64,000 nucleotides of DNA, from NCBI GenBank assembly GCA_951406725.2, contig OX597819.1, positions 89,342,001 to 89,406,000 of the forward strand, written 5' to 3'. The notes beneath the pieces are model-generated. The model did no database searches. It had not been told where the DNA came from and was given only the letters and a program-made list of their open reading frames with translations. Positions within the stretch are counted from its first letter, which is position 1, and the number at the start of each line of letters is the position of its first letter. This document shows positions 3,766 to 62,495 of this stretch, in pieces. This stretch comes from Octopus vulgaris. Lineage: Eukaryota. The translations under genes and the position numbers were made by a program.

Positions 3766-4150
3766 GGATCTTTACCTTTTGACCGACAGATTTTAAAAAT
3801 AATTTTCTGTAACTAAACACTTTCAAACTTTGGACACTGGTAGAATCTGTCATATAAAACGTCCTTTACTCTTAGCATTTTTAAGAAAAAACTTATATTT
3901 ACGAAGTTATTTCACGTTAAAGTTGTCCTATTTCGGTAATTTCAACCAATCAATGACGTGTATTCAGCTGAATAAAATTATTGCTGTTGTTTGTCAACAA
4001 GAACTTCCGGTGGTGTATATTTCGTTTGTCACTGTTATTTATGACAACACTAACCCTAAAGCCAGCCTTAACCCTTACCCTAACCCTAACCCTAACTCTA
4101 AAACCCTAACCCTAACCCTAAAACCTTAAAGCTAAAACCAATACAAACGC
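3766..4150 (-). mobile_element. truncated Merlin-type MITE relative with (CCCTAA)n
   Basis: starts GGATCTTTACCTTTTGACCGACAG; internal similarity to 34906-35321; CCCTAA tract ~4050-4125. Confidence 0.6.
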
Positions 4151-4151
4151 A

Positions 4152-4925
4152 CGAAGGTCAAACTCTCCAATTGCTTCTCCTCTGCCTGTATAATGAGGTC
4201 CAGTGTTTTTCCTCTCCATTCTCCGTCCTCCGTTTCCGTGGTTTGGAGGACAGCCACCTCCGCCTCACTTCCAACGAGGACAAATGCCGCAACACAAGCC
4301 ACTTCTATATCGGGTGGAATTCCTTCTACCCTCACCTTAGAAGTCTTTCTTCCAAGGCACGTGGGTAGAAGTACCACTTCCTCCGTTTTTACAGTTGCAC
4401 TTGCCAGCCTCTTTGCCTCCTCCGCTGTCCTAAACTGGACAACCACCGTCCCATATCCTTTTCCTTACGCTATGTATGTCACTTCCTTCGCAAGCCCCTT
4501 CAATGTTTTTTCTACTTTTTCCATCTCCATCCGCTCCACCTTCCTACTCTCCCCTGAGTACACCTAGTAGGTAATGGTCTTCTTTTCCATATTTTCCATA
4601 AACCCTTTTCAGGGGTAATAACTTTACGTCACCGCCCACCTTCTGTGTCATCTTACTCAGCTCCTTCAGTCCGGCTAGGTCCACCTCCCTTTTCTTCACC
4701 TCTGCAGCATCAGCAAAACTCTTTACTCTTTCCAAATGCTCGTCCATTCTATTTACCGCCTTAACGAGCTCCTCCTCCACTGAGGACAGCTCATACTCGC
4801 TAAGGTCCGAAGACATTCCTTTCTACCGGTACAACACTCACCGACAAACCGCTGCCAAGCAGCACAAAAAAATTCCGTCCAACTCGTCAAAAATCAACTC
4901 AGCAAATAGACCGACGTATGTGCGA
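4152..4925 (-). mobile_element. 5' end (UTR plus disrupted ORF1) of a Tx1/L1-like non-LTR retrotransposon
   Basis: ORF pieces 4544-4816 and 4132-4446 (coiled-coil, then VVQF..AEEAK..L, KVRVEGIPPDI RRM-like ORF1 motifs) with a frameshift. Confidence 0.6.
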
Positions 4926-4927
4926 GA

Positions 4928-4960
4928 AGCAAGCTTCTTACCACACAGCCGCACCTGCGT
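4928..4960 (-). mobile_element. SINE family B head only
   Basis: CGCAGGTGCGGCTGTGTGGTAAGAAGCTTGCTTC matches the head of the copy at 8829. Confidence 0.7.
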
Positions 4961-5402
4961 CTATTAAACACTTATTTTATCGACCCCAGCAGGATAAAAG
5001 ATATAATCAAATCTGGCAAGTTTTGAACTCGCAATGGAGAGGAATAAATATAACCTAACATTCAGTACTTAGCTGCTTCTGTTATCTTGATAGTGCTTAT
5101 AAAAATCTATATAATTGACAAGTGTTTTCATAAGTGTATGAAGCTGGCTTCAAAATTTGACTGGTAAATTTTACCAACTGAAAGTCGTTACGGAGTTGCT
5201 TCATCTCTTGAAGTTTTCACTGAAGTGCTAACATGATTTAAGTGTTACATAACAGACAGTAATTAGAATTGACAAAATTAATTCCGAACTGAACAAACAG
5301 AGAAAGACTGGGAAAAAATAAAGTAAAAAAAAAAACAAACAAAAAAACTCTGGGAGTATAAATTGAACATAATAATAATAATGATGATAATAATAATAAC
5401 AA

Positions 5403-5794
5403 CCCTTTTTGCTATAGGCACAATGCCTGAAATTTAGTGGGAGGGGGCTTTGTCAATTACATCGGCCCAGTGCGTAAATGGTACTTAATTTATCGACCCC
5501 GAAAGGATGAAAGGCAAAGTCGACCTCAGTGGAATTTGAACTCAGAATGTAGCGGCAGACGAAATACCTATTTCTTTACTACCCACAAGGGGCTAAACAC
5601 AGAGAGGACAAACAAGGACAGACAAACGGATCAAATCGATTATATCGACCCCAGTGCGTAACTTGTACTTATTTAATCGACCCCGAAAGGATGAAAGGCA
5701 AAGTCGACCTCGGCGGAATTTGAACACAGAACGTAGCGGCAGACGAAATACCGCTAAGTATTTTGCCCGTCGTATTTTGCCAGCTCACCACCTT
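5403..5794 (-). mobile_element. SINE family A dimer (young-tail unit plus old-tail unit)
   Basis: two body copies joined at AAGAAATAG|GTATTTCG (~5568). Confidence 0.85.
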
Positions 5795-5816
5795 AATAAT
5801 AATAATAATAATAATA

Positions 5817-5886: not shown

Positions 5887-7085
5887 TTTTGTATTGACCA
5901 CTAGGGCCGAACACACACAAAAAGGGACACTAGAAAATAAGGGATAAATGAGGCTTAGCACAAAATACGTGCATACAATAAAACAAGAACAATTAACAAC
6001 AAAAATTCAACAATAAGATTCCTGGAAAAAGGGAGTTCCACTGAGGATCAACCAAGGTTCCCCACATATCCTGGTCACCCCGACCACCTCTGCAGGTACT
6101 TCGCTCTTCTCAACCCCTCTGTTTACAAGTGTGTGTTCAGAGTAGGCCCATTCACACGAGTCGTTCTCGTCATATTCACCCACCTTTCGACAAAAATACC
6201 AGGGGGCAGCACTTCTCTCGTCATCTTCACTCTCGTTTTCGAGTGGAACTCGAAAAAGTCGAAAAGGAAAGTATCTGTCTTCGATCCTTTCAACCTCGTC
6301 CACTACACTACCTCTTTCGCCATAGCCACAAGATAGAGAAACTGCCTTCCTTTCCGGGCCAAAAGAAAGTGGCGGAGTATAACTCCTGATGGACTCGGCT
6401 GATAAATGGACCCATCCTACACGCGTCAACTGCTGTTCGACAGAGTTTCACCAATCAGCAATGCATGAACTCTGGACAAGTGCATGCAGAACGGTTTCAT
6501 CGCCCTGCGCACATCTTGGACAGGCCCGTCTAACAGCACTTCTGTGAACCGGCAAAGTTCCCCGGTAACATTGTCAGGGCAGGAATTTCTGAAAATTATC
6601 CATAGGCCCCGACCTAAAAGTCCTCCGGAAAAGACCAGCTAACTGATCCCTCTCAACGCCCAGAGTTTCTCCGAGGACATCGTTGCTCTTGCCCGCCACT
6701 AATCCCCTTTAGAACTCCAATGTGGAATTTCCACCACCCGTATTTCCCGACTAGCAGAAAGCTGTGATCGCATGCCGACATTCCAGGTACCAAGCGTCTT
6801 TTCTTGGCCTACGCTTAATTCAGGACGAGCTGCGGAAAATCATGTCTGACAAAGGCCGACCACACTTACTTACCGTTAAGATAACGCTGGAGACATCGCA
6901 GCCTCATTAGCTATGGTATGCCCAGTCCTCCACTTCACAGCTGCTGAAAGCAGATAGACCTCACGAACGGAACACTGAAAACGGAGGTTTGATCTTCCAA
7001 GAAGCAAGGCAAGGAATGACGGTTAGGCGGCAGTAGATGATGGAAGCAATGTACGCATTGGATTTACCAGGTGCCCATTCTTAGT
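5887..7085 (-). mobile_element. 3' part of a Tx1-clade LINE (decayed ORF2 C-terminus plus 3' UTR)
   Basis: minus strand reads CPRCAQGDETVLHAL (zf-RVT-like motif) continuing into ORF 6007-6429; 3' end runs into (CCA)n. Confidence 0.75.
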
Positions 7086-10609: not shown

Positions 10610-11669
10610 TTGTCTGTCTGTTTGTCTGTCTCTATATATGAAAGTGAACGATAATGATGATGATGTCTCACATGGTCACAAGGCCAAGAATATCATGGAA
10701 GGAGAACCGGCATTAAACCAAACCTCTGCCAGTCTTGTGGTATGACGTGATACACAGAAGATATTTCCCTAGCGTCCCATCATTTTATATGATACTCATT
10801 CCTAATTTTCTTCCAATCACCTGAATAAGTTCAGACTTACGAAAGGAATGCTTTATATGACTCAGAACGTACGAAAAGAGGTAACTTAAAAGGGTTGAAA
10901 ACAATCCATGGATGTTTAGGACAAACTTATGAAAATACTTTGGATAGGCAAAGGGTGAAATCAATTCAGTTTTACATTGGTCCTTATTTTGTTACCTTTT
11001 GAATGGTTTAAGACAACGTTGACTCAAACTGGATTTGAACACAGACCACAACATGACGTAATAAAATATTTGCAGAACATTTATCGTCAGTATCCGATTC
11101 TGCCACGCTACTACGCTTCTCGGCTAATGGATAATCAGATACTGAAACCTTGTTTATAATTCTAAGCAAGTGTAATTATATATTTCGGTAATTCCAGTGG
11201 CTGTGATATTAATAACGTTTTCTACTCACGTTCTATATCACTCGGTGATTTATGTATTTCAAATATGCTAATTTATTCGCCTGTTCGTGTACATTATTTT
11301 ACATCTAATAATAAATGCTGCCGACGTCTCTGTGTATTTAGGTAACAATTCTATCACTCTCTTTAGCCAAGCTGAAACTCTCACCGTCTCTAAAGGAGAC
11401 CTGATACTTCAGTTTTTCAACTCGGAAGATAAGAAATAGAAATTGCGAGTCAGAAGGTGGAGAGGGAGAGGGACGAAAGGGAAAAGGTGAGGCACAGTTG
11501 TTCAGAATTGTTCATTGGCAGACAATTTTGTTAAACAGGGAACTGTTGGAGATAGAAGTCTCTTATAAATGAAGGCTCTATTTGCTATTTGGAAAAAATT
11601 AGTTCCTAATATACAAACCGGGATTGTAACTGTTACAAAGCTTTTCATTACAGTTTTGTTTACTACGAG

Positions 11670-12610
11670 GGCGGCGAGCTGGCAGAAACGTTAGCACGCC
11701 GGGCGAAATGCGTAACCGTATTTCGTCTGCCATTGCGTTCTGAGTTCAAATTCCGCCGAGGTCGACTTTGCCTTTCATCCTTTCGGAGTCAATAAATTAA
11801 GTACCAGTTACGCACTGGGGTCGATGTAATCGTCTTAATCCATTTGTCAATCCTTATTTGTCCCCTCTGTGTTTAGCCCCTTGTGGATAGTAAAGAAATA
11901 GGTATTTCGTCTGCCGCTACGTTCTGAGCTCAAATTCTGCCGAGGTCGACTTTGCTTTTCATTCTTTCGGGGTCGATAAATTAAGTACCAGTTTTGCACT
12001 GGGGTCGATGTAATCGGCTTAATCCGTTTGTCTGTCCTTGTTTGTCCTCTCTGTGTTTAGCCCCTTGTGGATAGTAAAGAAATATGTATTTCGTCTGCCG
12101 CTACGTTCTGAGCTCAAATTCTGCCGAGGTCGACTTTGCCTTTCATCCTTTCGGGGTCGGTAAATTAAGTACCAGTTACGCACTGAGATCGATGTAATCG
12201 TCTTAATCCATTTGTCTGTCCTTGTTTGTCCCCTCTGTGTTTAGCCCCTTGTGGATAGTAAAGAAATAGGTATTTCGTCTGCCGCTACGTTCTGAGCTCA
12301 AATTCTGCCGAGGTCGACATTGCTTTTCATTCTTTCGGGGTCGATAAATTAAGTACCAGTTTTGCGCTGGGGTCGATGTAATCGGCTTAATCCGTTTGTC
12401 TGTCCTTGTTTGTCCTCTCTGTGTTTAGCCCCTTGTGGGTAGTAAAGAAATAGGTATTTCGTCTGCCGCTACGCTCTGAGCTCAAATTCTGCCGAGGTCG
12501 ACTTTGTCTTTCATCCTTTCGGGGTCGATAAATTAAGTACCAGATAAATTAAGTACTAATCGGCTGGCCTCCTCCCCCAAAATTTCGGGCCTTGTGCCTA
12601 GATTAGAAAA
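11670..12610 (+). mobile_element. SINE family A tandem array, 184-bp period
   Basis: one head, then units starting at 11718, 11902, 12086, 12270 and 12454; ends in the old-type tail. Confidence 0.95.
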
Positions 12611-12617
12611 TAATATC

Positions 12618-13059
12618 TTCTGTTAGGCATCGTGATCACAATTCGATTGTGCAGAATGTTCACGGATTGTGATTCGTCTGTTCGCGTATATCGATTCGTC
12701 CACTTGCTGGCGTTTCATCTCAATTGTCGCAGTTGATGCGTTCTCACTGCGTAGTTTGTCTTCAATACCGTTTATTCCTTCTTTAAACTTCTTCATGCAT
12801 TTATGCACATTGCTCTTATCAGTAGTGTCATCTTTATAACCAGTCTGCAACCCTTTATGCAAAGGACTTAATGACGGCTCATTGTTTCTGCTCGAAGCCC
12901 ATTATCGCCTTCAATGACGAAGAAAAGGAAGATAAGTTACTATAGTGGAAGAGTAACTCCACTAACATGTGCAATTGGAAAAAAACCTATGTTAGTCAAT
13001 AAAAAAAAAACAAGATCCTACCCACCCACTTTTGCATTTTAATCAGCAACATCCTCGTA
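12618..13059 (-). mobile_element. mariner 5' fragment (HTH region of a decayed transposase)
   Basis: ORF 12623-12862 KKFKEG..IED..RS...T...NRRITIRE; terminus TACGAGGA on the minus strand. Confidence 0.75.
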
Positions 13060-20989: not shown

Positions 20990-22110
20990 TGGTAGGCGTC
21001 CGTGGTTAGACATATCAGCGGTATGATACCTGTGGGAAAAAAGACTGAGTCAAGAGCAGCAGCAAAAGAAACTAATGATGTGGTAGACCATTGACTTATC
21101 AACGAACGTATGGCACATAACTGGTTCAGACGTTTCACAAAACTGGTTCGGAAGGTGATACCAGCCTCGAAGACAAACCAAGGTTAGCGAGGCCTTCTGT
21201 TGTAGAGGGTGAGACCTTGCTTGTAATAGTTGAACAACAGCTGATCACAAACATTCGTACATCGTCAGCCAAACTTAGTCCTTCACAAAACACTTTCAGT
21301 CAACAATTCCATAAGCTCGGCCTTGTGAACAGACGCTGTCGAGAAGTTCCCCATGAAATTACCAATGGCCAGGTTCAACGACGTGTGAACATTTGCAATC
21401 AACTAAGGGCAAATCCTCGAGGTGACCGTTTTTGGTGTCAAATTTTAATGAGGTACGAAAAACGAATCTATATTTGTAACCCTTATGAGAGAAATCAGTG
21501 GTTTCATTCTGGCCAGGCTTCAGAACCTTTTGTCAAACAAGGATGGTTTAAACAGAAGGTCATGTTTTGTGTGTGGTGGAAATTCAATGGGGTATTGCAC
21601 TTTGAGCTTGTCTCGGATGATCATGATGTGAACGCTCACCTTTATGCTCAACAATTGAAGTGAATATATGATGCTTTGAAAGCTTGTTACCCGGCTTTGG
21701 CAAATCGAAATCACGCACCCCTACAGCATGGCATTGCCACTGTACTTATTGCCAATGTGACCAAGCGCAAACTTGAGGAACTTGAAGGGCAGGAAGTGCT
21801 GCCTCACCCTGTCAACAGTCCAGACCTTGCACCTTTTCCAGATTACCACATTTTCCGAGCCATGGCTCGCTTCCTGCACAGATGGAGGTTTAACAATGTA
21901 GATGAAGCTGAAATCAGGTACAGGGAGTTTTTTTGCCTCTAAACCAGTCAAATGCTACAAGCAAGGAATTGAGCTTCTGGCATAACGATGACAACAAACA
22001 ATGGAATATGATGCGATATTATTTTGATAAATAAACGCAATTCGTATGTCATTTGTTTGAATTATTAATTAAAGCTTGAAATACGAAAGCATTCTTGACA
22101 CATACTCATA
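20990..22110 (+). mobile_element. decayed mariner element (transposase pseudogene)
   Basis: ORFs 21217-21663 and 21676-21942: VPHEIT (cf. WVPHEL), KVMFCVWW, HPVNSPDLAP.DYHIFR (cf. YSPDLAPSD); left end uncertain. Confidence 0.9.
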
Positions 22111-22122
22111 AACATATGTATG

Positions 22123-22972
22123 TCATTATTCAGTTTTACTTCAAGGTTTCTTGCTAATAGAGAAAGAGCTGGTTTCTAACCTAGATCCAAAGCTCCTTCA
22201 TTGGAATTTCAACATCAACTATAGGGTATTTTTGTTTGCATGTATGTATGTATGCACGTATAGATATGTGCAGATTTGTATGTTTTATTTTGTGTATATT
22301 CTCATGCATATAGTTGCATATCTAGACATGCTGGTATATATTTAAATGATAAACTTCTGGAAAGTTTTACAGATTTTTACAGTTCCAGTGATGGATTAGA
22401 TCTGTAGTCTTCGAATCAGCGTTCTCCTTTCTGATTTTGAGAAGTCTAATTTCTCAAGAATTTAGGCAGTGTGTTACATATCCCTGTGCCTCAATAATTA
22501 CAGGTATAGACCTGAACTTGTAATCTGGATAAAGTAACTGCAGATTTCTCAATAGTTCAGCATAGATATTCTCTTTTTCACTGACCTTCAGCTTTATGTT
22601 AATATCCGCTGGGCGCTAATTTCCAAAACTGTACACAGTTCCTTTTCTTTATCCCAAATCATTATATCCTGTCTGTTATGCTTACATTTTATTGAGGTCT
22701 TCACTAGGACATTCGACCAGTACTCCTTTTTATTATGAGTGGATATGGGTTCTTATTTCTTTGTCCTCAAGATTATCCTGCCGACGGATTTCATTATAGA
22801 GTGTCCTAGCTACAACATCATGTCTCATCAGTAGATACTACCGTGATGACATTTTCGGACAGCTACTTATGGTGTGGGTGATATCTTCGGTGCTTATTCC
22901 ACAAAGTCTGCATCGGGTGTCATATTTTACTGTTTTTCCTGCATCTCTATCCCTTTTGCGCATCAGGTATTT
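22123..22972 (-). mobile_element. RLE non-LTR retrotransposon 3' fragment ((CATA)n-associated family)
   Basis: homologous to 50590-51570 (CRLC..H..SSC, RHD, RLE); same 3' end ACTGAATAATGA|CATAC. Confidence 0.85.
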
Positions 22973-22977
22973 GTAAA

Positions 22978-23203
22978 GGCGGCGAGCTGGCAGAAACGTT
23001 GGCACGTCGGGCGAAATGCGTAGCCGTATTTCGTCTGCCGTTACGTATTGAGTTCAAATTCCGCCGTGGTCGACTTTGCCTTTCGTCCTTTCGGTGCCGA
23101 TAAATTAAGTACCAGTTGCGCGCTGGGGTCGATGTAATCGACTTAATCCCTGTGTCTGTCCTTGATTGTCCCCTCTGTGTTTAGCCCCTTGTGAGTAGTA
23201 AAT
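22978..23203 (+). mobile_element. SINE family A monomer with young tail
   Basis: complete head-body-tail. Confidence 0.9.
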
Positions 23204-24129
23204 ATGTATTTGTATGTATGTATGTATGTATGTATGTATGTATGTATGTATGTATGTATGTATGTATGTATGTATGCATGTGTGTGTGTATGTGTATACA
23301 CATGTGTATGTATATATGTATATAACATAACATTTATTTGTGGGCTCACTGAATATTTTATTTTAACGAACGTTGTGTGAGTAGCACTTACATTTTTTTT
23401 TTTGAAAGGATAACAACGCTAGGTTGAACTTGTATTAATCTTTTGATAAACTGAATTCTCTCGGTTGCAGTAACTTCTGTTACAGCATCAAGGATTTTGT
23501 TCCAAATAGTCTAGTACAGAAAGCATAATTCTGCGTTTTAATGATCTGTAATTTATACGTACCTCGCATACTTTTCACTCTTACCGCATCATGTTTAGTA
23601 TGATGTAAGCTGCTGATTATAAGATTTTGTATAGCTTCCACTTCGTCAAGTGCAATGATCCTGAGAACTTTCTTTTTGATTAAGTTGAGTTGGCTGGTTA
23701 TGCTATGTAAAGCACTGATCTAGAATAGACGATAGCTTCCTTTCATATCCAAATTCATCGTAATAATTTATAAGGTTTGAAGCTTCTATGCATTTGAGTC
23801 ACAGATAGAGAAAGATGCGCTGTGTCCGCATTAGTTATGGTAACGTCTAGAACTTAATTCTTTCTGTTTTTCATTCGTTCTTTCTTGGCTCTGCTTACTG
23901 GCTACACGGATGTTTCTATGTTGTCAAAATTGCTGGGTCATCTTCTAGATATAACACTTAGTACCGATGAAGAGATTAGTCTAAATAAATAAATAACTAT
24001 AGCAATTCAATACCCGGGTAGTTAGAAGAAAATTTTGATGAGATTCTCAATCTCCACCTAAAAAGAAAGACGTACTCTCGGAGCATCACATTTTACAAAA
24101 AATAAATAAAAAAATAAATAAATAAATCC

Positions 24130-24624: not shown

Positions 24625-24985
24625 CACACACGGGTATACGCGGACATGCAGGTAAATATATATGTATGCATAAATTTATATACCTACAAGTGTGTATGTG
24701 TGTATATATTACTTTATTCACCTACCTGCCTGCCTACCGACCTACCTAGTTAGGTAGTCAATTACATTGATCCCCCTGTATTTTATTGACCCCGCATGGA
24801 TGAAAGGCAAAGTCGACCTCGGACAAATTTGAACCCAGAACCTATATATTGGTAGTTAGTTAGGTAGGTAGGTAGGTAGGTAGGTAGACAGGTAGGTGAA
24901 TAAAGTAATATATATACACATACACACTTGTAGGTATATAAATGTATGCATATATATTTACCTGCATGTCCACGTGTGTACACAC
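24625..24985. repeat. inverted duplication, ~120-bp arms around a SINE fragment
   Basis: GGACATGCAGGTAAATATATATG...TTACTTTATTCACCTACCTG mirrored at ~24890-24972. Confidence 0.9.
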
Positions 24986-31639: not shown

Positions 31640-32760
31640 TCAGGTCATCCCATAAGTTCTGTCCGAATTTACCTTTTTAAAAATTGAATGAAATTTAGCA
31701 GTATTTTAGAATGTCTAATGGAATTAAAAATTATTTTTATGCATTTGTGTACATTTAAACTAATTAAATATTATTTTACAGAATAATAGAATTAAAATTT
31801 CTTTGATTAAAACCCTTTCTAACATTGGAAGTATCCAAAGAGCATTTAAGGCACATAAAGCTTTATGAGTACAAAAAAGGAAACTCTGCAGCCGAAGCGA
31901 CTCGAAACATACACCCAGTTTATGGGAAAGAATGCTTGAATGAAAGAACTTGCAGAAGATGGTTTGCAAAATTCAGAAGTGGAGATTTCAGCCTCGAAGA
32001 TGAAGATCGAACAGGACGTTCAGTTGAGTTTGATGATAGGCTCCTTGAGGTATTACTTGAAGAAAATCCTGCATTATCAGTTGAAGAATTGGCAATAAAA
32101 CTTAGTTCGAACCATACAACTGTTCATCGTTATCTTCAACAACTTGAAAAGGTTCCTAAACTTGGAAAATGGGTGCCTCATGAATTGTTCGAAAGCAACC
32201 GCAAATCCCGAGTTGACATCTGCTCTTCTCTCCATTCTCGCGAACTCATTTCACCCTTTTTGAATAGACTTGTGACTGATGACGAAAAATGGATCTTGCA
32301 TCGAAATGTTAAGCGTCGTAAACAGTGGCTTGGTAAAAGGGAAAAAAGCTCAACCACAACCGAGAAGGGAACTTCATGGAAAAAAGCTTCTTCTCTCTAT
32401 CTGGTGAGATTGCAAAGGAGTAATTCACTTTGAATTGTTACCACCTAATGCAACAATCAATGCTCAAGTCTACTGTCAGCAAATAGAGCGTTTGAACCAA
32501 GCTTTGAAGAAAAAAAAAGACCCGTTTTAGTGAATCGAAAATGTGTGATGTTTCATCAGGACAATGCGCGACCCCACACTGCAAAGATCACATCACAGAA
32601 AATCGAAGTTTTACATTGATGGGATTAAAAAGCTTGTAAATAGATGGAAGTAATAGATAATCGGGGAAAGTACATTGATGGTTAAATTTCAATTAAATAT
32701 AACATTTGATCACTTGTTTTCTTTATTCAAAATTCGGACAGAACTTATGGGATGACCTGA
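31640..32760 (+). mobile_element. mariner element with perfect 31-bp TIRs and TA TSD; transposase frameshifted and internally deleted
   Basis: TCAGGTCATCCCATAAGTTCTGTCCGAATTT at both ends; ORF 31825-32433 with WFAKFRSG, WVPHEL, VTDDEKW; later HQDNARPH; YSPDL region missing. Confidence 0.97.
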
Positions 32761-35321: not shown

Positions 35322-35745
35322 GCGCCCGCTACTGTTGTTCCGCTGCATAACTGTAAGCTGCCTATCACTATCGAGTTTAGTGCGCTCTTAGAAGAGATGC
35401 TTATACCCTTGTGTTGTAGTTGGTACATTGTAACTGGACTGTGGTATTTCTGGCTCACCAAAATAATAATAAGTATAGTCTTTGACGATATATTTCGTAT
35501 GTAGAACTGAATTTCAACCAACGAAAACCAGAGAACTGTGGTTTTCGGCCGCAAAGGAACAGTTGTAAGTGTAAGGTTAATGAAGGTACAAAAAAAAAAA
35601 AAAAATCTTCCTCGTTCTTTGTGTCATAAACGTTACAAAAGTAATTGTAAAAACAAAGCTCGAAGATTTTTGTCGATGGTTGCAGTCAGCTAAAAATGAA
35701 AACGATTTGAGCAAAGGTCGAGGTGACCTATATAGAAAATTGAAA

Positions 35746-35976
35746 GGCGGCGAGCTGGCAGAAACATTAACATGCCGAGCGAAATGCGTAGCCGTATTTC
35801 GTCTATCGTTACGTTCCGAGTTCAAATTCCGCCGAGGTTGACTTTGCCTTTCATCCTTTCGTGGTCGATAAATTAAGTACCAGTTACGCACTGGGGTCGA
35901 TGTAATCGACTTAATCCGTTTGTCTATCCTTGTTTGTCCTCTCTGTGTTTAGCCGCTTGTGGGTAGTAAAGAAATA
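35746..35976 (+). mobile_element. SINE family A monomer with young tail
   Basis: complete copy; flanks share TATA.AAAATTGAA (probable TSD). Confidence 0.9.
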
Positions 35977-36802
35977 TATATAAAAAATTGAAGGACTTAT
36001 AAAAACGTGCTGTGCTGCTATTTCACCAGAAAAAAAATGTTGGATTTGTAGCAGTTCAGTCAGAAATATGGCTGTTGGTCAGAAAAGTGAGGGTCACGAA
36101 TCCAGAAAAATAAAGGATGCGTAGAGATAAGAACTATAAAAATATATATATTAGTATTCCCTTTTTTTTTTTTACCACGTATCACTAGAGACAGACCATT
36201 CTCGGTCTAAGTGGCTCTAGGATTAAAATTATTTAAGCAGCACGTGTTCTTACAAATCTTTGGTACATATAAGCTGAAAATGGCGGCAATACATAGAGTG
36301 AAAAATAACAAGCTGTGTTGGTACAGTAATTCATGCATGAAAAAAATCTACAAGTTTCATTTACAAAATTAATAAAAATTAGGTTTACATAAATGCATTT
36401 GAAAGAAAAATATTATGCATATTGGTCGTGTTTGTACAAGTCAATTGAATAATTCATGTGCTGTGTAAATAGAGTTATCAGCATACGTGACCTGGCAGAA
36501 AGAGATAACACCATTTGGTGTTGCGTTCACTTAAAACGTACCTCGTGGTGAGACTAACTGAGAAGAAATGAATATAAAAATTAACTAAAAAAAAAACAGA
36601 ATTATTTGTTCCGTTCGACGAGAAGCAAGAAACGTCAAGTTCAGGAATTGCTGAGTACAGAGTCAAAAGAGCGAAAAACTTCGGGTTTCTGCTTATATAG
36701 CAAAGATGACGAAAGCTTACTGGTTTCTGACTGACTAATGAAACCGGTGTAATCCATTACCGTGAAGTCACATCTTGCATGAGGTATTGCAAAATATATG
36801 TG

Positions 36803-39334: not shown

Positions 39335-40126
39335 TTCAAATTTTGGCACTAGACCAGCAACTTCAATGGAAGGGATAGGTCGATGTAATCGATCCTAGTG
39401 TTCAACTGGTACTTTAGTTCATCGAATCCCGAAAAGATGAAAGGCAAAGTGGGCCACAGAGGAATTTGAACACAGAAGGGTAAAGACGGACGAAATACTG
39501 TTGAGCATTTTCCTCGGCGTGCTAGCGATTCTTATTTCTTTACTGCCCACAAAGGGTTACACACAGAGGGGACAGACAAACGGATTAAGTCGATTATATC
39601 GACCCCAGTGCGTAACTTGTACTTATTTAATCGACCCCGAAAGGACGAAAGGCAAAGTCGACCTCAGCGGAATTTGATCTCAGAACGTAGCGGCAGACAA
39701 AATACCTATTTCTTTACTACCCACAAGGGGCTAAACACAGAGCGCACAAACAAGGACAGACAAACAGGTTAAGTTGATTATATCGCCCCCAGTGCGTAAC
39801 TGGTACTTATTAAATCGACCCCGAAAGGATGAATAGCAAAGTCGACCTCGGCGGAATTTGAACTCAGATTGTAACGGCAGACGAAATACCTATTTCTATT
39901 TCTTTATTACCCACAAGGGGCTAAACACAGAGGGGACGAACAAGGACAGACATAGGTATTAAGTCGATTACATCGACCCCAGTGCGTAACTGGTACTTAA
40001 TTTATCGACCCCGAAAGGATGAAAGGCAAAGTCGACCTCGGCGGAATTTGAACTCACAACGTAACGCAGACGAAATACCGCTAAGCATTTCGCCCAACGT
40101 GCTAACGTTTCTGCCGGCTCGCCGCC
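39335..40126 (-). mobile_element. SINE family A tandem array (3 young-tail units plus 1 old unit)
   Basis: junctions at ~39890, ~39706 and ~39532. Confidence 0.9.
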
Positions 40127-40211
40127 TCACCTCTTAGAATAATATGATAGCGCTATCCATACAAAGTCCAAAGAAAGCTATTTTACACAAACATGCACGA
40201 ACGAACTCACG

Positions 40212-40917: not shown

Positions 40918-41597
40918 TTTTTTTTTCTTCTTTCAAATTTGCTTCCATTTCTTGCCGAGTGTCTTCCCGACTCCTAGGGCAAAGAAACTCATAGTATACA
41001 TTGGTAGGCCATTAAACCAAACTCAATAGTTCGTTCATTTTTATTTTTAAAATTTTTTTTTTTTAAAGTTAAATTAAAATACATGAGCAGCAACAGTTCT
41101 CACATCGACAATGCTCTTCTCAATACGTGTGATGTACCAGTTAAGACAATCTTTTGCACTTCTTGCAGGGATGGTAAGCCAGGGATCATTCTCATATAAT
41201 TTTCGGTTCCCTTCTTGATCATTCCTAGTGCTCCTACGATCACTGGTATTGTAACCGCCTTGAGATGCCACATTTTCTCAATTTCAATGAGTAGGTCTTT
41301 ATATTTTCTGAGCTTGTCAAACTCTTTCGCTGAGATATTATGATCACAGGGGATGCTTATGTCGATCAATAAGCAAACTTTATTGTTTTGGTCTTTCACA
41401 ACAATATCTGGTTTATTGGCCTTGATGGTTCGGTCTGTATGTACTGGAAAGTCCCACAGAATGGTTACATTTTCTCCTTCAGTTACAGCCTCAGGGTGGT
41501 GATTATACCACTTGTCGGCAGTTTTGATATTGTAATGCCGACTTATTAGCCAGTGTAGATATTGGCCAACTCTGTCATGTCTTAATTTATACTCCAC
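40918..41597 (-). mobile_element. 5'-truncated R4/Dong-clade retrotransposon, RLE domain still open
   Basis: ORF 41100-41597: RHD, ILWDF, KPDIVV, LLIDISIP, K..KY, PVIVGALG; (TAA)n on both sides. Confidence 0.92.
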
Positions 41598-45590: not shown

Positions 45591-46403
45591 AGTACTACCA
45601 CACAGGAACCCACTCAGAAACCGCACAAGAAATTGGTTGTGTGGCGTTTGCACATAAATTAATAGGTTTTTAAATGTTTGTTTTTCTTCAATCTTTTTCT
45701 CCTTCGGCTCTATGGTGTCTAGTTTATCATACGTAATAAAATAGCATTGAGTTTGCTTCATGTCTGTCTTGTTGCAAGCGCATGTCTGTCTGTGTGTGTA
45801 GTTTGTTGCGTGTAATGTAGTTATGTATGTATGTATGTATGTGTGTGTTTGTGTGTGTTTTGTGCGTGTATATGTGTGCACATACGTATGTGTATGTGAG
45901 ATATAGCGAGAGAGAGAAGGAGGGAGGGAGAATGATGGATATAGACACAAACAGACAGAAAGTGAAGGAGAGATGCAGAGAGAGAGGGAGAGAGAGAGAG
46001 AGAGGGAAGGAGAGAAACAGAGACAAATTGATAAGAAAGGGAGAGTGGGGATAGAAATATTAAAATTATTTTCAGGATGTGAATATATTGATTCCATTCT
46101 CAGGCGCGTGGCCAATTATGTATTATGCAAAAAGGGAAGATTTTTAGACCATTCTTTCAATACCAGTGCAGTTATTGGTACTCATTTTATCGATCACGGG
46201 ATAAAGTAAAAGACGAAAACAGACAGACTTGATTCTTGCAGAACTGAATCTCAAAGCAGTTAGGTACTAAAGAAGATATAGAAGTATTGGCCGAGCCAAC
46301 GATGATGCTACTACGCAATCAGGCGACCTAATCGAAATAGTAGCCAAATCGCCCCCAAACTACATGCTTGCTTTGTCTTGGACCCTCAACTCTGTGTCAC
46401 TGA

Positions 46404-46763
46404 CGTTGCAAGAGAGTGTGCCGCCCGGAACAGACTTTTGAGTTTGTGGGTACCTCCGGGCCTTCAAGCCAAAGGTGCTGTCCTCATAAAAGCGTCGCTC
46501 AAGGCTAATTCATCGCTCCCGCCTAGCTACGCTACTGCTCTTTGATGAGTCAGCGGTGTCGCAAGAGTGTGTGCCGCCCGGAACAGAACTGCAGTGGGTG
46601 CCACCCGGAACAGAACAACAGTGGGTGTCGCCCGGAACAGACCTTGAGTTCATTTTCCCTCGGGTCATCGAGCCTATACAGACTTATACAGCTAACCCAA
46701 TGGTGCTGTCCCCATAAGCGGGAATTCCTCGCCCTCGCTTATCTACGCTACTGCTCTTTGATG
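46404..46763. repeat. GC-rich two-unit tandem with an inner 24-bp repeat
   Basis: GTGCCGCCCGGAACAGA x4; GGTGCTGTCC.CATAA and CTACGCTACTGCTCTTTGATG x2. Confidence 0.8.
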
Positions 46764-47162
46764 GAATTGAAAAGGTACCGTTGTGACATTTGCGTGTCTT
46801 GGCCATAGTTTTAGATCTGATGGAACTCATCTCTCTCTACGTGTAACAACACTCTAGTTCTTCGAGAAAGAAAGAGAGACAGACAGAAAGAAGTTGTGAG
46901 AAAAAGAGAAGCGTCGATCCCCAGAATAGAACTGGTACCTTATTTATTGTATCCAAAAGGATGAAATGCTAAGTTGACATCGACAGGATTTGAACTCAGA
47001 GATACGGAACGATTACAACAGAGCAAATCATCCAACGTCTTAACAACTCCACCAATTAGAGACCTTAAACCACACACTGACGTTTTTTTAAAACAAAAAA
47101 TACACATGACATACATTAAATGGGATGGTCGTTAATGGAAGGACCTTGCGCAGACTTCGGGC

Positions 47163-47567: not shown

Positions 47568-48121
47568 TCATATTTAGGATTTTAGAGAACGAACGCTGAG
47601 CGGCGGCATGATGACTTTAAAGAATGCATTTCACATTTACACCAATAATAATTGATGTACTTGATTTAGTTAGGAGATGTTTAAGTGACAATCTGGGTAA
47701 GCTGGGGGATTTTAGCAAACGAAATCAACAAGTTAATTCGCACATTACAAATGCAACCTGTGAGTAGAACAATAAAAATATGCAAGATTTTTCTCAAGAT
47801 GAAAATGTGAATTTATTTTTGTTATCTACATTCCAGTGATGGAGCTTTGTATCTTTGCTAGAAACCATAAACCAACGCCTTCCGTACTGGAAGATTTCAA
47901 ATAATTAACATTTTATCGCACACACACACATACACATATATTAGTGTAGACGCAGTTATTTTCTACGCTTGAATTGCAAAAGCTTAAAATATTCTAATGA
48001 GCAAAATGACAGAGTAGCTCTTAACCTCCCAAAATGTCGATTATGACAACGGTTCTGAAACTGATAAATACTAGGTTACACCAAATTTATTATTGAAATT
48101 CCGCTCCTTTTATTTAATCTT

Positions 48122-48990
48122 TCTAATTTTGGCACAAGCCCAGCAATTTTAAGGGTAAAGGGTAAATTGACTACATCTACCACAGTACTTGACTAGTACT
48201 TATTTTTACCAACCTCGAAACGATAAAATACTAAGTTGACCTCGGCGGAATTTGAGCTCAGAACGTAAAGAGTTTCAAGAAATGTCATTAAGCATTTTTG
48301 TCCGACGTGCTAACGATTCTTATTTCTTTACTGCCCACAAGGGGCTACACACAGAGGGGACAAACAAGGACAGACAAACAGATTAAGTCGATTATATCGA
48401 CCCCAGTGCGTAACTGGTACTTATTTAATCGACCCCGAAAGGATGAAAGGCAAAGTCGACCTTGGCAGCATTTGAACTCAGAACGTAGCGGTAGACGAAA
48501 TACCGCTAAGCATTGTCGCCCGACGTGCTAACGTTTCTGCCAACTCGCCATCACTATTAAGCCTTCCTACTGTAGACACAAGGTCTGAAATTTTGATGGG
48601 ACGGGGTTAGTCGACTACATCGACCCTATGCTTCCCTAATACTTATTTTATCGACCCCAAAAGGATGAAAGGCAAAGTCGACCTCGGTGGCATTTGAACT
48701 CAGAAATTAATACCTAAAGAAATGCCGCAAAAGTTCTTTGGCGTAGTAACGATTCCACCTGCTCGCTCCCTTAAATGCGTTCAAATTCCGACACAAAGGC
48801 AGTAATTTTAAGGAAAGGTACGCCGATTCCATCAACCTCAGTGTTCAACTGGTACTTATTTAATCGACCCCGAAAGGATGAAAGGCAAAGTCGACCTCGG
48901 CGGAATTTGAACTCAGAACATAAAGAGCCAGAAAGAATTCCGCCAAGCACTTAGTCTTCGACGCGCATATGATTTTACGAACTCGCCGTC
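48122..48990 (-). mobile_element. cluster of four co-oriented SINE family A units
   Basis: heads at ~48990, ~48770 and ~48550; young-tail/old-body junction at ~48319. Confidence 0.85.
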
Positions 48991-49124
48991 TCATTAACGA
49001 GTGCATCTCGATAGAAATCTTCTTTCATCGTTATAGTGTTGGACAACTTACGAAATTTCAAAATCACCCTAAGTTTATAAAACATTGGTATTTTGTTCTT
49101 TCCTTTTCAATCTTCGCAGCCTCA

Positions 49125-49967: not shown

Positions 49968-51570
49968 AAAGAAATTTGGACCTCAGAACTCTCTGCATTC
50001 AATAAACTAATGGTCCATAATGTGTTTGCAGTGACAGTACTCATACCAACATTTGGGCTGCTTGATTGGACGCTTGATGATATCCGAGCCATTGATGTGA
50101 AAAGCCTGAAAAATACTAACAAGCACACGTAATTTCCACATAAACAGTGACGTAGACCACCTCTACCTAAAATGAAAAGAAGGCGGTAGAGGCTTAACAT
50201 CGATCCAAATTGCCTTTAAATGTCGCATCATATCCCTTCGGCAACATCTTTTAGCCACCAAGCGTCGAAGTGCATCACTCGACTAAGTTTGCATACATGA
50301 GGCTGATAACATCATAAGACTTGGAAGGCAACTCCTTGAGCAACACTCTTTCTCTGATAACCTAGAGTACATGCCCAAAGAAGTCGCACGACTCTACCGC
50401 AACATATCATCAGATGAAAGGATGAGCCTATATGAGCAGAAGACTATTCATGGATATGTTAGTAGAAAGCTCTGTGATGATCGTAACATCGATCATCAAA
50501 GCAGTTTATCATGGACGAATAGCCGGATTACTACCTCCCACTTTGAAGGGTATGCGTTTACAGTTCAGGAACAGGAAATATCAACAAAGTACCCGATGCA
50601 CAAAAGGGATAGAGATGCGGGAAAAGCCGTAAAATGTAACGACCGATGCAGACTTTGTGGTGTTCACACTGAAGATATTACTCACATCATAAGCAGTTGT
50701 CTGAAAATGTCATCACGGTATTATCTACCGATGAGGCATGACGTTGTAGCTAGGACGCTCTATAATGAAATCTGTCAGAAGGATAATCCCGAGGACAAAG
50801 AATTAAGAACCCACAATATGGTAGAAGCCATAGCCACTCATAATAAAAAGGAATACTGGTGGAATGTACTAGTGAAGACCTCAATAAAATGTAAAGCACA
50901 ACAGAACCTGATATAATGATTTGGGATAGAGAAGAGAAACTGTGCACAGTTGTAGAAATAAGCTGCCCAGCAGATGTTAAGATAAAGCTGAAGATCAGTG
51001 AAAAAGAGAACACTTATGCTGAACTATTGAGAAATCTGCAGTTACTCTATCCAGATTACAAGTTCAGGTTTATACCTGCAATTATTGGGGAACTGGGATA
51101 TGTAACACACTGCCTAAATACCAATCTTGAGAAATTAAGCTTCTCAAAACCAGAAAGGAGAAAGCTAATTCGAAGACTACAGACCCAATCCATCACTGGA
51201 AATGTAAAAATCTGTAAAACTTCCAGAAGTTTATCATTTAAATATATATAAGCATGTCTAGATATGTAACTATATGCATGAGAAAATATACATAAAACAT
51301 ACAAATCTGCACATACATACATACATACATACATACATACATACATACATACATACATACATACATACATACATACATACATAAATACATACATACATAC
51401 ATACATACATACATACATACATACATACATACATGCATACATACATACATACATGCATACATACATACAAAAATACCCTATTGTTGATGTTGAAATTTCA
51501 TTGACAGAACCTTGGATCTAGGTGAGAAACCGGCTCTTTCTCTATTGGCAAGAAATAAACTGAATAATGA
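49968..51570 (+). mobile_element. 5'-truncated RLE non-LTR retrotransposon ((CATA)n-associated)
   Basis: ORFs 50371-50916 and 50916-51251: QEQEI, CRLC..H..SSC, RHD, VVEISCP, K...Y, IIGELG; ends in (CATA)n. Confidence 0.92.
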
Positions 51571-52966: not shown

Positions 52967-53765
<799 letters not shown>

Positions 53766-61556: not shown

Positions 61557-61799
61557 AAAAGTAAAGACGGAATCATTACGGTTGGAACACTTTTGATAAT
61601 AAATTAGTTTAATAGGAGCGAATATGGAGCTGACAGCAGTTGTGACACCCTCTTCTTCTGCTGCTCAATATCAATTTCGAGCTTGATAGACAATCATTCC
61701 AGACTTTTAGCATAGGCTTTTGGTGTAGAGACATTAATGGTATTATGATTAGGATTATTAACTGTTCGACCCAGCACCATATAAATTTATCCAGTTGTA

Positions 61800-62495
61800 G
61801 TCATGATGAGTCTGGCCTCGTAGTGAGAGGCCTTGCGTGTTCCGTAGATTCGAGAGAACATTACCTATTTCTTTATTACCCACAAGGGGCTAAACGTAGA
61901 GGGGACAAACAAGGACAGACATTGGTATTAAGTCGATTACATTGACCCCAGTGCGTAACTGGTACTTAATTTATCGACCCCGAAAGGATGAAAGGTAAAG
62001 TCGACCTCGGCGGAATTTGAACTCAGAATGTAACGGCAGACGAAATACCGCTAAGCAGTTCGCCCGACGTGCTAACGTTTCTGCCAGCTCTCCGCCTTAA
62101 TGTTCAAGAGAACATTACCGTCTGGAGTTTTGCTCTAGGTACGGCCACCCCAGGCGATCCGATCTCCCGGGGAGGTTCCAGACTAACGGTGACTCATGGC
62201 GCGTCGGTTTGTCGTCGAGATGACAGCCCTATCATCTAACTGTTCTGCAGAGGGCCAACAACCCAACTAGAAGAACCCTCAACCTGTTAGGACACCGACC
62301 AGAAGAAACCGGAGGGCCCAACATCGGAACGGACCTCTGCATGCCGCTGATGTAGAGAGGCTGGCATAGGACCGCCAGCAATGGCACGGGGAGGTGCATT
62401 GGTGGACCTGGTCGGCTCTACGCACGATGACGCCGCTGGGGCCACTAACCTGGGATGATCCCAGCCCTATCGAGCCAGAGTATGGCTGAGTGAGA
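61800..62495 (+). mobile_element. non-autonomous RTE derivative (5' UTR joined to 3' end), interrupted by a SINE
   Basis: RTE-type leader motifs CTTGCGTG..GGCCACCC..GGAGGTTCCAGACTAA; 3' remnant ERLA*DRQQW. Confidence 0.6.
61866..62100 (-). mobile_element. SINE family A young-tail monomer with TSD
   Basis: 17-bp TSD TTC(G/A)AGAGAACATTACC at 61849-61865 and 62103-62119. Confidence 0.93.

What the first reader, a model, noticed from the sequence alone, without database searches (positions are those of the whole stretch)
11670..12610. Self-nesting SINE system: arrays built as head-[body+young tail]n-body+old tail
Seen: four loci (5403-5794, 11670-12610, 39335-40126, 48122-48550) share one grammar: a single head, 1-4 young-tail units, and always a final old-tail unit. 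Only two junctions are used, GAAATAG|GTATTTCGTC (three loci) and GAAATAA|GAATCG(T/C)TAGC (two loci). Young-tail monomers also move alone (17-bp TSD at 61849/62103). Inference: the young SINE, mobilised by a sequence-specific Tx1-like enzyme, inserts into older copies of its own family with homology-guided 5' joining. Concatemeric or circular RNA templates are the alternative. Either would be a SINE-to-satellite mechanism.
Basis: partly seen in the sequence, partly recalled or inferred. Interest (0 to 1): 0.8.

Follow-up and report, generated by a model that had tools for sequence, protein, structure and literature searches.

The report
SINE stacking inside its own copies
A very common short jumping element in this animal genome sits in head-to-tail stacks that are joined at just two fixed bases of its own sequence, most likely because new copies land inside older ones and local duplication then likely lengthens some stacks, which would be a direct route from a scattered repeat to a tandem repeat.

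Summary
Four arrays of a tRNA-type SINE (2, 5, 4 and 2 units) have one head each. All 9 internal joints use two registers: J1 (GAAATA|GGTATTT, 7) and J2 (GAAATA|AGAATC, 2). Both registers recur in public runs of two other organisms: 8 of the 15 listed joints (of 744) return to the tail end, 7 compatible with J1 and 1 at J2. A single master multimer is rejected: the young halves before J2 differ at 12/174 sites, the old halves at 63/201. Array C is a stack of different subfamilies, which fits serial insertion. Lone monomers have 10-17 bp target duplications, and 2 of 3 start with GGTA. The young tail resembles the 3' end of an L1-group LINE fragment in the window; Tx1 membership and the partner enzyme are not shown. 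No ribozyme or RNA-circle evidence. Closest known: crocodilian SINEU/Tx1-Mar and squamate SINE-derived satellites. Verdict: new variant of a known kind, interest 0.57.

The parts
11669..11900 (+). Array B head (A-box part) + unit B1 (body + young tail); head variant GCGTAACCGTATTT, matching monomers 22976 and 35744 at the G63C state
11901..12452 (+). Units B2-B4, 184 bp each, each starting at J1; B2 and B4 differ at 1.6%, neighbouring units at 6.0-9.8% (ABAB local duplication)
12453..12612 (+). Last unit B5: young-type body sharing T94C and C103T with B2-B4, then a 14-bp duplication and a deletion of about 20 bp, then old tail O1
5569..5796 (-). Array A head + young unit; array flanked by (TAT)n on both sides
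5403..5568 (-). Array A last unit from J1: young-type body + old tail O1
39891..40127 (-). Array C head + unit C1, closest to monomer 61865 (4.4%); tail ends GAAATAGAAATA
39533..39890 (-). Units C2 and C3, both starting at J1, 10.9-12.1% from C1 and from each other; C3 carries T226G and T241C
39335..39532 (-). C4: old host from J2 (head position about 17), diverged body, old tail O2
48321..48552 (-). D1: head + young unit with T226G and T241C
48120..48320 (-). D2: old host from J2, old tail O2; the tail end and flank are present at the orthologous site in organism E
   Evidence: (X12 record 9; X1 record 2)
48556..48996 (-). Two further full-length old copies head-to-tail directly upstream of D1
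61866..62102 (-). Lone young monomer; target duplication 61849-61865 / 62103-62119 beginning GGTAAT; site probably empty in organisms B and E
22976..23204 (+). Lone young monomer; 10-bp duplication beginning GGTATTT (22966-22975 / 23205-23214, 1 mismatch) at the truncated end of an unrelated LINE
35745..35976 (+). Lone young monomer; 16-bp duplication beginning TATATA (35729-35744 / 35977-35992, 1 mismatch)
5887..6850 (-). Broken 3' fragment of an L1-group LINE without poly(A), ending in a young-tail-like motif next to (CCA)n; relative of the candidate partner, 5' limit approximate
53539..53600 (-). Non-SINE 3' end matching the young tail (20 of 23 terminal bases) next to (TATC)n; 5' limit not defined

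Best explanation
The arrays are stacks of one SINE family joined at two fixed bases of its tRNA-type head, most likely built when a site-preferring L1/Tx1-type LINE enzyme inserted young-tailed copies into existing family copies, after which local unequal exchange likely lengthened array B. Steps: (1) Shown: young-tailed monomers insert on their own with 10-17 bp target duplications. (2) Inferred: the borrowed endonuclease nicks before GGTA(T) (J1, mainly T241 tails) or before AGAATC (J2, C241 tails), and reverse transcription starts at the tail end GAAATA, giving a sharp 3' joint. (3) Inferred: the new cDNA is homologous to the host head upstream of the nick, pairs with it and replaces it, so no second head and no distinguishable target duplication remain. 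(4) Shown as structure, inferred as process: each insertion brings a fresh J1 site, so stacks can grow (array C: one J2 event and two J1 events). (5) Shown as pattern, inferred as process: a nested dimer holds two bodies 184 bp apart, and misaligned exchange between them gives head-[body+tail]n-body+old tail (array B, a 184-bp then a 368-bp duplication).
For: Old hosts are independent: C3/D1 differ at 12/174 but C4/D2 at 63/201, Fisher p 1e-9. C4 already has a private change 8 nt after the joint. C units are 10.9-12.1% apart, within the 4.4-13.6% range seen between units of different arrays, and C1 groups with monomer 61865 (88/83 support, not starred). Registers are fixed elsewhere: of 744 joints on the monomer, 15 are listed and 8 return to the tail end. 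The exact J1 joint (back 184) is in 33 and 4 contigs (X4, X12) and 72 and 75 reads (X23, X24). Six more J1-compatible rows add 107 contigs in X4; five of them (96 contigs) carry varied letters between tail and body. J2 (back 217) is in 7 and 1 contigs and 1005 and 534 reads. A J1-type loose end stands in 1235 X4 contigs. J1 is also among the 15 listed of 5650 joints. Two of 3 monomer duplications start GGTA (P 3e-5 from window frequency); one is GGTATTT outside any SINE. The left side is young-type at head column 31 in C and D while the target is old-type. B: 12 mismatches in the best 368-bp lag window, 22/462 at lag 368 against 50/646 at lag 184; T94C is confined to B2-B5. The tail resembles the end of a LINE fragment (4 of 3000 random windows score as well) whose relatives carry RVT_1 + zf-RVT and hit human L1 ORF2p at E 1e-49 against R2 at 1e-24. 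Precedents: R1 precise 5' joints by annealing (PMC2718515, passages); Tx1-Mar/SINEU with family-specific sites (PMC4494074, passages and section 16).
Against: No LINE was shown joined at J1 or J2, and the LINE fragment in the window sits in (CCA)n, not in a SINE. Tx1 membership was not resolved, and four searches on the 146-aa piece gave nothing useful. No empty allele of any array was seen; D1's presence in organism E is unknown. The third monomer's target starts TATATA. A 5-base motif alone does not explain the preference: 12 GGTAT sites lie in the family and 102 elsewhere, yet at least 6 of 9 events are in the family (P about 1e-4; the window was selected for its arrays). In A and B the last body is young-type up to the old tail, as gene conversion or a dimer template would also give. 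Only 15 of 744 joints are listed, contigs fragment in high-copy repeats, and the tool left some joints uncounted in the DNA runs, so minor registers and true frequencies are unknown. The large J2 read counts could come from a few expressed loci.
Confidence: 0.72

Rival explanations
1. DNA-level gene conversion or ectopic recombination: a few founder dimers donate the tail-plus-junction cassette to other family copies through the shared body, with no new endonuclease cut.
For: It explains seamless left sides and the link between subfamily and joint (2 of 2 C241 tails at J2, 0 of 10 T241 tails; Fisher p 0.015, or 0.028 with B counted once). A2 and B5 have young-type bodies, and B5 has a duplication-deletion where young turns to old. 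Unequal recombination is the route proposed for squamate SINE satellites (PMC10702118, parts 1-4 of 5).
Against: C4 and D2 are old-type immediately after the joint. X4 joints show varied letters right after GGTA (table 5c), leaving almost no donor tract on the right. Lone monomers with target duplications start with the same GGTA outside any SINE.
Confidence: 0.1
2. RNA-level assembly: the old tail's own partner reverse transcriptase starts on an old-tail RNA fragment and jumps end-to-end onto young SINE RNAs cut at fixed points, or copies a 184-nt circle or concatemer, laying a whole array in one event.
For: It explains one head, a final old tail and the lack of an outer target duplication (none for B, C or D; A lies in (TAT)n). 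J1 lies at the loop edge of a predicted head hairpin (z -1.4, not significant). J1 and J2 joints occur in RNA reads.
Against: Units of C belong to different subfamilies and ages, and B2/B4 are much closer than B2/B3. C4 and D2 are as decayed as lone old copies, and a 140-bp X1 contig matches D2 at near single-copy depth (65.7 against 46.9). No Rfam hit and no CTGAnGA core in array B. RNA reads are balanced on both strands with no start or end peaks (strandedness and size selection unknown). The joints also stand in DNA runs, so RNA joints need no circle.
Confidence: 0.09
3. All arrays are retroposed or duplicated copies of one pre-formed master multimer.
For: C3 and D1 share T226G and T241C and the same joint. 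There is no T4 run between the head of A and its flank, so a Pol III transcript could span a dimer.
Against: The old halves C4/D2 are 31% apart against 7% for the young halves; the A2/B5 tails differ at 20/53; first units A1/B1 are 10.9% apart, and their only position-specific link is T81C in the last units, shared by 8 units. No outer target duplications.
Confidence: 0.04

Closest known systems
Crocodilian SINEU mobilised by Tx1-Mar (Kojima 2015, PMC4494074; passages and section 16 read)
   Same: A SINE carried by a Tx1-type LINE into fixed positions of another repeat; two hot spots used by different SINE and LINE families; tandem copies explained by sequential insertion.
   Different: There the target is a Mariner DNA transposon and tandem SINEs sandwich a visible target duplication. 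Here the target is the SINE's own family, and all inner units lack the head.
SINE-derived satellites (sSat1-3) of squamates (Vassetzky et al. 2023, PMC10702118; parts 1-4 of 5 read)
   Same: Tandem units shorter than the SINE, fixed unit limits across many loci, terminal units extending to a SINE end, alternating dimeric patterns, growth by unequal recombination.
   Different: sSat arrays reach hundreds to more than 1000 units and favour subtelomeres; in the parts read no targeted insertion is shown. Here there are 2-5 units, the two ends carry different tails, and units of one array can come from different subfamilies.
Melanogaster-type R1 and R2 5' joints (PMC2718515; passages read)
   Same: cDNA bearing sequence of the upstream target is proposed to anneal to it, giving precise joints without a target duplication.
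   Different: Autonomous LINEs in rDNA with 2-27 nt of homology. Here a passenger SINE's whole head is homologous to the target.
Metazoan non-LTR retrozymes (PMC7229834; abstract and outline only)
   Same: Tandem units of 170-400 nt.
   Different: They need a hammerhead ribozyme and give circular RNA; no ribozyme match here.
Octopus tRNA-derived SINEs OR1/OR2 (Ohshima and Okada 1994; not read, seen only as citations in PMC4824008 and PMC4758252)
   Same: Probably the same kind of host and element; this rests on my recall and on earlier scan notes, not on a call that names the organism.
   Different: Identity of the family could not be tested; no published consensus was available to the tools (searches found none of the motifs).

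Membership tests
tRNA-derived SINE | Short, non-coding, high-copy, interspersed | tested here: met
   About 240 bp; 28 BLAST pieces and 5192 bp (8%) in the window; 197,700-399,598 contigs laid per DNA run
tRNA-derived SINE | tRNA-related head with A and B boxes | tested here: inconclusive
   A- and B-box-like motifs by eye (box consensus recalled); ARAGORN 0 genes; Rfam 0 matches
tRNA-derived SINE | Target site duplications of variable length | tested here: met
   3 of 3 lone young monomers: 17, 10 and 16 bp, 1 mismatch each
tRNA-derived SINE | Pol III transcription | not testable with these tools
   RNA reads balanced on both strands, no start or end peaks
Tx1-mobilised site-specific SINE (SINEU/Tx1-Mar type) | 3' tail shared with a LINE | tested here: met
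   End-anchored score against the LINE end at 5887-5930 reached by 4 of 3000 random windows; second end at 53541 by 3 of 3000. An unanchored local score was not above microsatellite background
Tx1-mobilised site-specific SINE (SINEU/Tx1-Mar type) | That LINE belongs to the Tx1 clade | tested here: inconclusive
   L1 group shown through relatives; no RT tree against Tx1 references
Tx1-mobilised site-specific SINE (SINEU/Tx1-Mar type) | SINE shows target preference for fixed positions of a repeat | tested here: met
   9 of 12 young tails in the window end at J1 or J2; same registers in organisms B and E
Tx1-mobilised site-specific SINE (SINEU/Tx1-Mar type) | LINE and SINE share the same target | not testable with these tools
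   No genome held; no loci from collection scans; asserted only in unchecked earlier notes
SINE-derived satellite (sSat) | Tandem unit is a fixed part of a SINE, recurring at many loci | tested here: met
   184-bp unit in 3 loci and in other genomes
SINE-derived satellite (sSat) | At least four middle monomers (the paper's working threshold) | tested here: not met
   Longest array B has 3 middle units (5 in all)
SINE-derived satellite (sSat) | Higher homogeneity within than between loci | tested here: inconclusive
   Partly in B (1.6-11.4%), not in C (10.9-12.1%)
SINE-derived satellite (sSat) | Subtelomeric location | not testable with these tools
   No genome held
Non-LTR retrozyme | Hammerhead ribozyme in each unit | tested here: not met
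   Rfam gathering on the window and E up to 1 on 11600-12700: 0; no CTGAnGA on either strand of array B
Non-LTR retrozyme | Abundant circular RNA | tested here: inconclusive
   J1 joint in 72 and 75 RNA reads, also present in DNA; libraries not designed for circles

The most novel reading that the evidence does not exclude
The landing address is written in the SINE RNA itself. Nested master copies transcribe through the joint (no T4 stop in the unit) and the tail end GAAATA is the exact complement of J1 bases +3 to +8, so each subfamily inherits its own register (C241 with J2, T241 with J1; across four runs the share of tails continued by G tracks the T241 share at a ratio of 0.30-0.53). The SINE would then be an RNA-guided self-targeting element that seeds its own tandem repeats, while head variants that alter the sites (AGAAAC, CCGTATTT) would be escape from self-insertion.
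Probability: 0.22. Interest if true: 0.82.

Novelty: new variant of a known kind. Interest (0 to 1): 0.57.

Why it matters
If correct, a SINE supplies the landing sites for the enzyme that spreads it and turns its own copies into fixed-period tandem seeds. That gives a concrete first step for the birth of satellites from SINEs, which the squamate study left to chance duplication. It also offers a natural test of whether retrotransposon target choice is set by the endonuclease or by pairing of the RNA tail, and of how cDNA pairing with a homologous target closes the 5' joint. Practically, headless inner units and overwritten heads will distort SINE copy counts and age estimates in such genomes.

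Tried and rejected
Whole-genome census: no genome is held. Exact-pattern scans for the tail or body in viral, metagenome and prokaryote contigs found 0 loci, and a scan for relatives of P0008 found none. Identifying the LINE from the 146-aa piece failed; the Atlas hit LssY is treated as chance because recognition was low; representatives P0002 and P0004 are unrelated repeat proteins. A longer read-through with X found relatives. The R4-like fragments (clade named from recall) do not visibly share the old tail (by eye), so the old-tail partner is unknown. Several joints (for example 48514->48302 and 48926->48296) are rejected as alternative placements of one head on two family copies. An assembly artefact for B is rejected because B2/B4 differ at 3 sites and the lag-368 window at 12. 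Hairpins at J1 and J2 are not significant (z -1.4 to 0.35). Tail-target complementarity is not general: 6, 6, 6 and 5 of 6 at the four J1 sites tested and 5 of 6 at monomer 22976, but 2-3 of 6 at J2 and the other two monomers. TRIM/LTR tandem-array logic (PMC10886601, passages) fits B's growth but not the monomers, which have long variable duplications. MetaSINE or CORE assignment was not testable (1 of 2 supplement files searched, 0 hits).

Full report
Setting. The window is 37% G+C, rich in microsatellites and mariner and LINE fragments. I take it for an octopod genome from recall and from earlier scan notes; no call of mine names the organism. No whole genome is held, so genome-wide evidence comes from two lays of public runs. 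These cover 5 of the 24 runs listed: X1 (organism A), X4 (B), and X12, X23, X24 (E). On the unique flank of array D, X4 is identical to the window (0/188) and X12 differs at 11/188.

Observation. One SINE family of about 240 bp covers 5192 bp of the window. It has a head with A- and B-box-like motifs (consensus recalled; ARAGORN and Rfam silent), a shared body and alternative tails. Four arrays have one head, then 1, 4, 3 and 1 young-tail units, then a last unit with an old tail. Of 12 young tails, 7 are followed by J1 (GAAATA|GGTATTT, head position about 50, between the boxes), 2 by J2 (GAAATA|AGAATC, position about 17) and 3 by unrelated DNA. The last units are not uniform: A2 and B5 have young-type bodies with tail O1, while C4 and D2 are 17-26% diverged from the young units and have tail O2.

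Are the registers fixed elsewhere? Laid on the lone monomer 61790-62180, four runs gave 744 joints, of which 15 are listed. Eight of these return to the tail end. The exact J1 joint (62045->61862) is in 33 X4 and 4 X12 contigs and in 72 and 75 RNA reads. A one-base variant adds 11 X4 contigs. Five rows (96 X4 contigs) resume at tail+GGTA from 62027-62035, and related rows in table 5c show varied letters between; I read these as J1 into diverged bodies. J2 (62082->61866) is in 7 and 1 contigs and 1005 and 534 reads. A loose end at 62049 whose consensus is the young tail stands in 1235 X4 contigs. The other 7 listed rows are two 57-base skips, one 31-base skip, two strand changes and two returns to 61929, the body end. 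J1 is also among the 15 listed of 5650 joints (11, 9 and 2 contigs; 41 reads). Limits: contigs break in high-copy repeats, some joints were not counted in the DNA runs, 729 rows are hidden, and RNA counts may reflect few loci. The 'random junctions' refutation fails, but true frequencies are unknown.

One master multimer? No. C3 and D1 share two tail variants (T226G, T241C) and J2, yet they differ at 12/174 sites while their old halves differ at 63/201 (p 1e-9). A 140-bp X1 contig matches D2 exactly at depth 65.7 against 46.9 for the flank, so D2 is not high-copy. A1 and B1 are 10.9% apart and the A2/B5 tails differ at 20/53.

Two growth modes. In C the units are 10.9-12.1% apart, and C1 is closest to monomer 61865 (4.4%; tree support 88/83, not starred). 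C1 also ends in a doubled GAAATA. This fits three separate insertions. In B, T94C is confined to units 2-5, B2/B4 differ at 1.6%, and B1/B3 share two variants. Mismatches are 22/462 at lag 368 (12 in the best 368-bp window) against 50/646 at lag 184. This fits a nested dimer expanded by a 184-bp and then a 368-bp local duplication. The alternating pattern is also reported for snake SINE satellites. The grammar follows automatically once a dimer holds two homologous bodies.

Target choice. All three lone monomers have target duplications (17, 10 and 16 bp, 1 mismatch each), and two begin GGTA (P 3e-5). The 22976 target reads GGTATTTG at the truncated end of an unrelated LINE, so the preference acts outside SINEs. 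For 61865, one record per DNA run overruns the stretch and depth is identical on both flanks (X4 43.2, X12 8.38). This suggests an empty allele in B and E, but the skipping joint is not among the listed rows. A short motif is not enough: GGTAT occurs 12 times in the family and 102 times elsewhere, while at least 6 of 9 events are in the family (P about 1e-4; GGTATT 0.008; the window is a selected sample). Register follows subfamily: 2 of 2 C241 tails are at J2 and 0 of 10 T241 tails (p 0.015; 0.028 with B counted once). T241 makes up 81% of tails in X4 and 10-12% in organism E, and the share of tails continued by G scales with it (ratio 0.33, 0.30, 0.39, 0.53; rough, since it rests on my reading of the depth columns). 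This can mean successive partner enzymes, as for SINEU families and different Tx1-Mar families, or an address carried by the RNA. The tail end complements J1 bases +3 to +8 (6, 6, 6 and 5 of 6 at four sites) but not J2 (2-3 of 6).

5' joint. At J2 the target has AGAATC, but the left side of C and D has the young AGAAAC, and B's head is of the same variant as two lone monomers. No old-type target duplication survives, so the cDNA likely paired with the host head upstream of the nick and replaced it. A like annealing step is proposed for precise R1 and R2 joints.

Partner. A broken LINE end at 5887-6850 lacks poly(A) and ends in a motif like the young tail. End-anchored, 4 of 3000 random windows score as well; unanchored, it is not above microsatellite background. 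A second non-SINE end at 53541 matches 20 of 23 bases. The fragment's relatives (55-64% identity over 45% of the query) carry zf-RVT, three of four also RVT_1, and P0008 hits human L1 ORF2p at E 1e-49 against R2 at 1e-24. So it is L1-group; Tx1 is plausible but untested. Both ends lie next to microsatellites, not SINEs, so they are relatives of the partner at best. Earlier AI notes on this genome describe Tx1-like LINEs inserted at one base of this kind of SINE head; I could not check them and do not count them as support.

Circles or concatemers. No ribozyme match, unequal unit ages, balanced strands and no start or end peaks. The libraries were not made for small circles, so this is not excluded.

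Literature. Nine searches listed no title or abstract opening describing a SINE that inserts headless into fixed bases of its own family. Read: PMC10702118 parts 1-4 of 5; PMC4494074 passages and section 16; PMC2718515, PMC4824008, PMC4758252, PMC8967140 and PMC10886601 passages; PMC13282606 part 1 of 3 and a supplement search; PMC7229834 abstract and outline. The 2015 octopus genome paper is not held, and Ohshima and Okada 1994 and Repbase could not be read; any of them may already describe these multimers.

Verdict. Real and general, not an artefact. Most likely serial site-preferring retroinsertion into the SINE's own family with homology-closed 5' joints, plus ordinary local duplication (0.72). 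Each ingredient has a precedent; self-targeting with headless stacking appears to be the new combination. The arrays are satellite seeds at most. New variant of a known kind; interest 0.57.

Noticed in passing
window 11895-11908 and the other J1 joints: The J1 joint is a palindrome, GAAATA-GG-TATTTC: the tail end is the reverse complement of target bases +3 to +8. It also repeats the GAAAT arm of the head's own hairpin. Not true of J2; fold not significant.
   Followed up: partly
heads at 11669, 22976, 35745 and all young heads: Young heads read AGAAAC where most old heads read (A)GAATC (the J2 site), and one young variant reads CCGTATTT instead of GCGGTATTT (the J1 site); possibly escape from self-insertion.
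   Followed up: no
window 12530-12565: B5 switches from young body to old tail through a 14-bp duplication and a deletion of about 20 bp, a possible repair or template-switch scar.
   Followed up: no
window 48120-48996 (-): Chain of four family members head-to-tail; a head-after-body-end joint (62098->61929) also appears among the listed joints in X4 and X12.
   Followed up: partly
joints 62028->62099 and 62033->62090: Recurrent opposite-strand joints inside the head region in both DNA runs (9-10 and 5-6 contigs); may be inverted head-to-head copies or acceptor-stem self-complementarity.
   Followed up: no
window 4135-4967 (-): Degenerate reading frames that look like a LINE ORF1, followed on that strand by (TTAGGG)n-like repeats at 4046-4135; no Pfam hit.
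   Followed up: partly
window 41103-41597(-), 49968-51157(+), 55040-56644(-), 22115-22974(-): Several LINE fragments (RVT_1 and zf-RVT weak hits; R4/Dong-like by recall) abutting (TAA)n or (ATGT)n microsatellites.
   Followed up: partly
window 21121-21660 (+) and 31807-32430 (+): Mariner transposase fragments (Transposase_1, HTH_48).
   Followed up: no
window 24779-24940: Truncated family copy flanked by an inverted duplication of about 70 bp of neighbouring microsatellite-rich DNA.
   Followed up: no
P0009, P0013: Relatives of the window's LINE fragment are deposited as Herbaspirillum proteins, probably host DNA in bacterial assemblies.
   Followed up: no
window 46306-46805: GC-rich repeat with internal 27-bp tandem units, not related to the SINE.
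   Followed up: no
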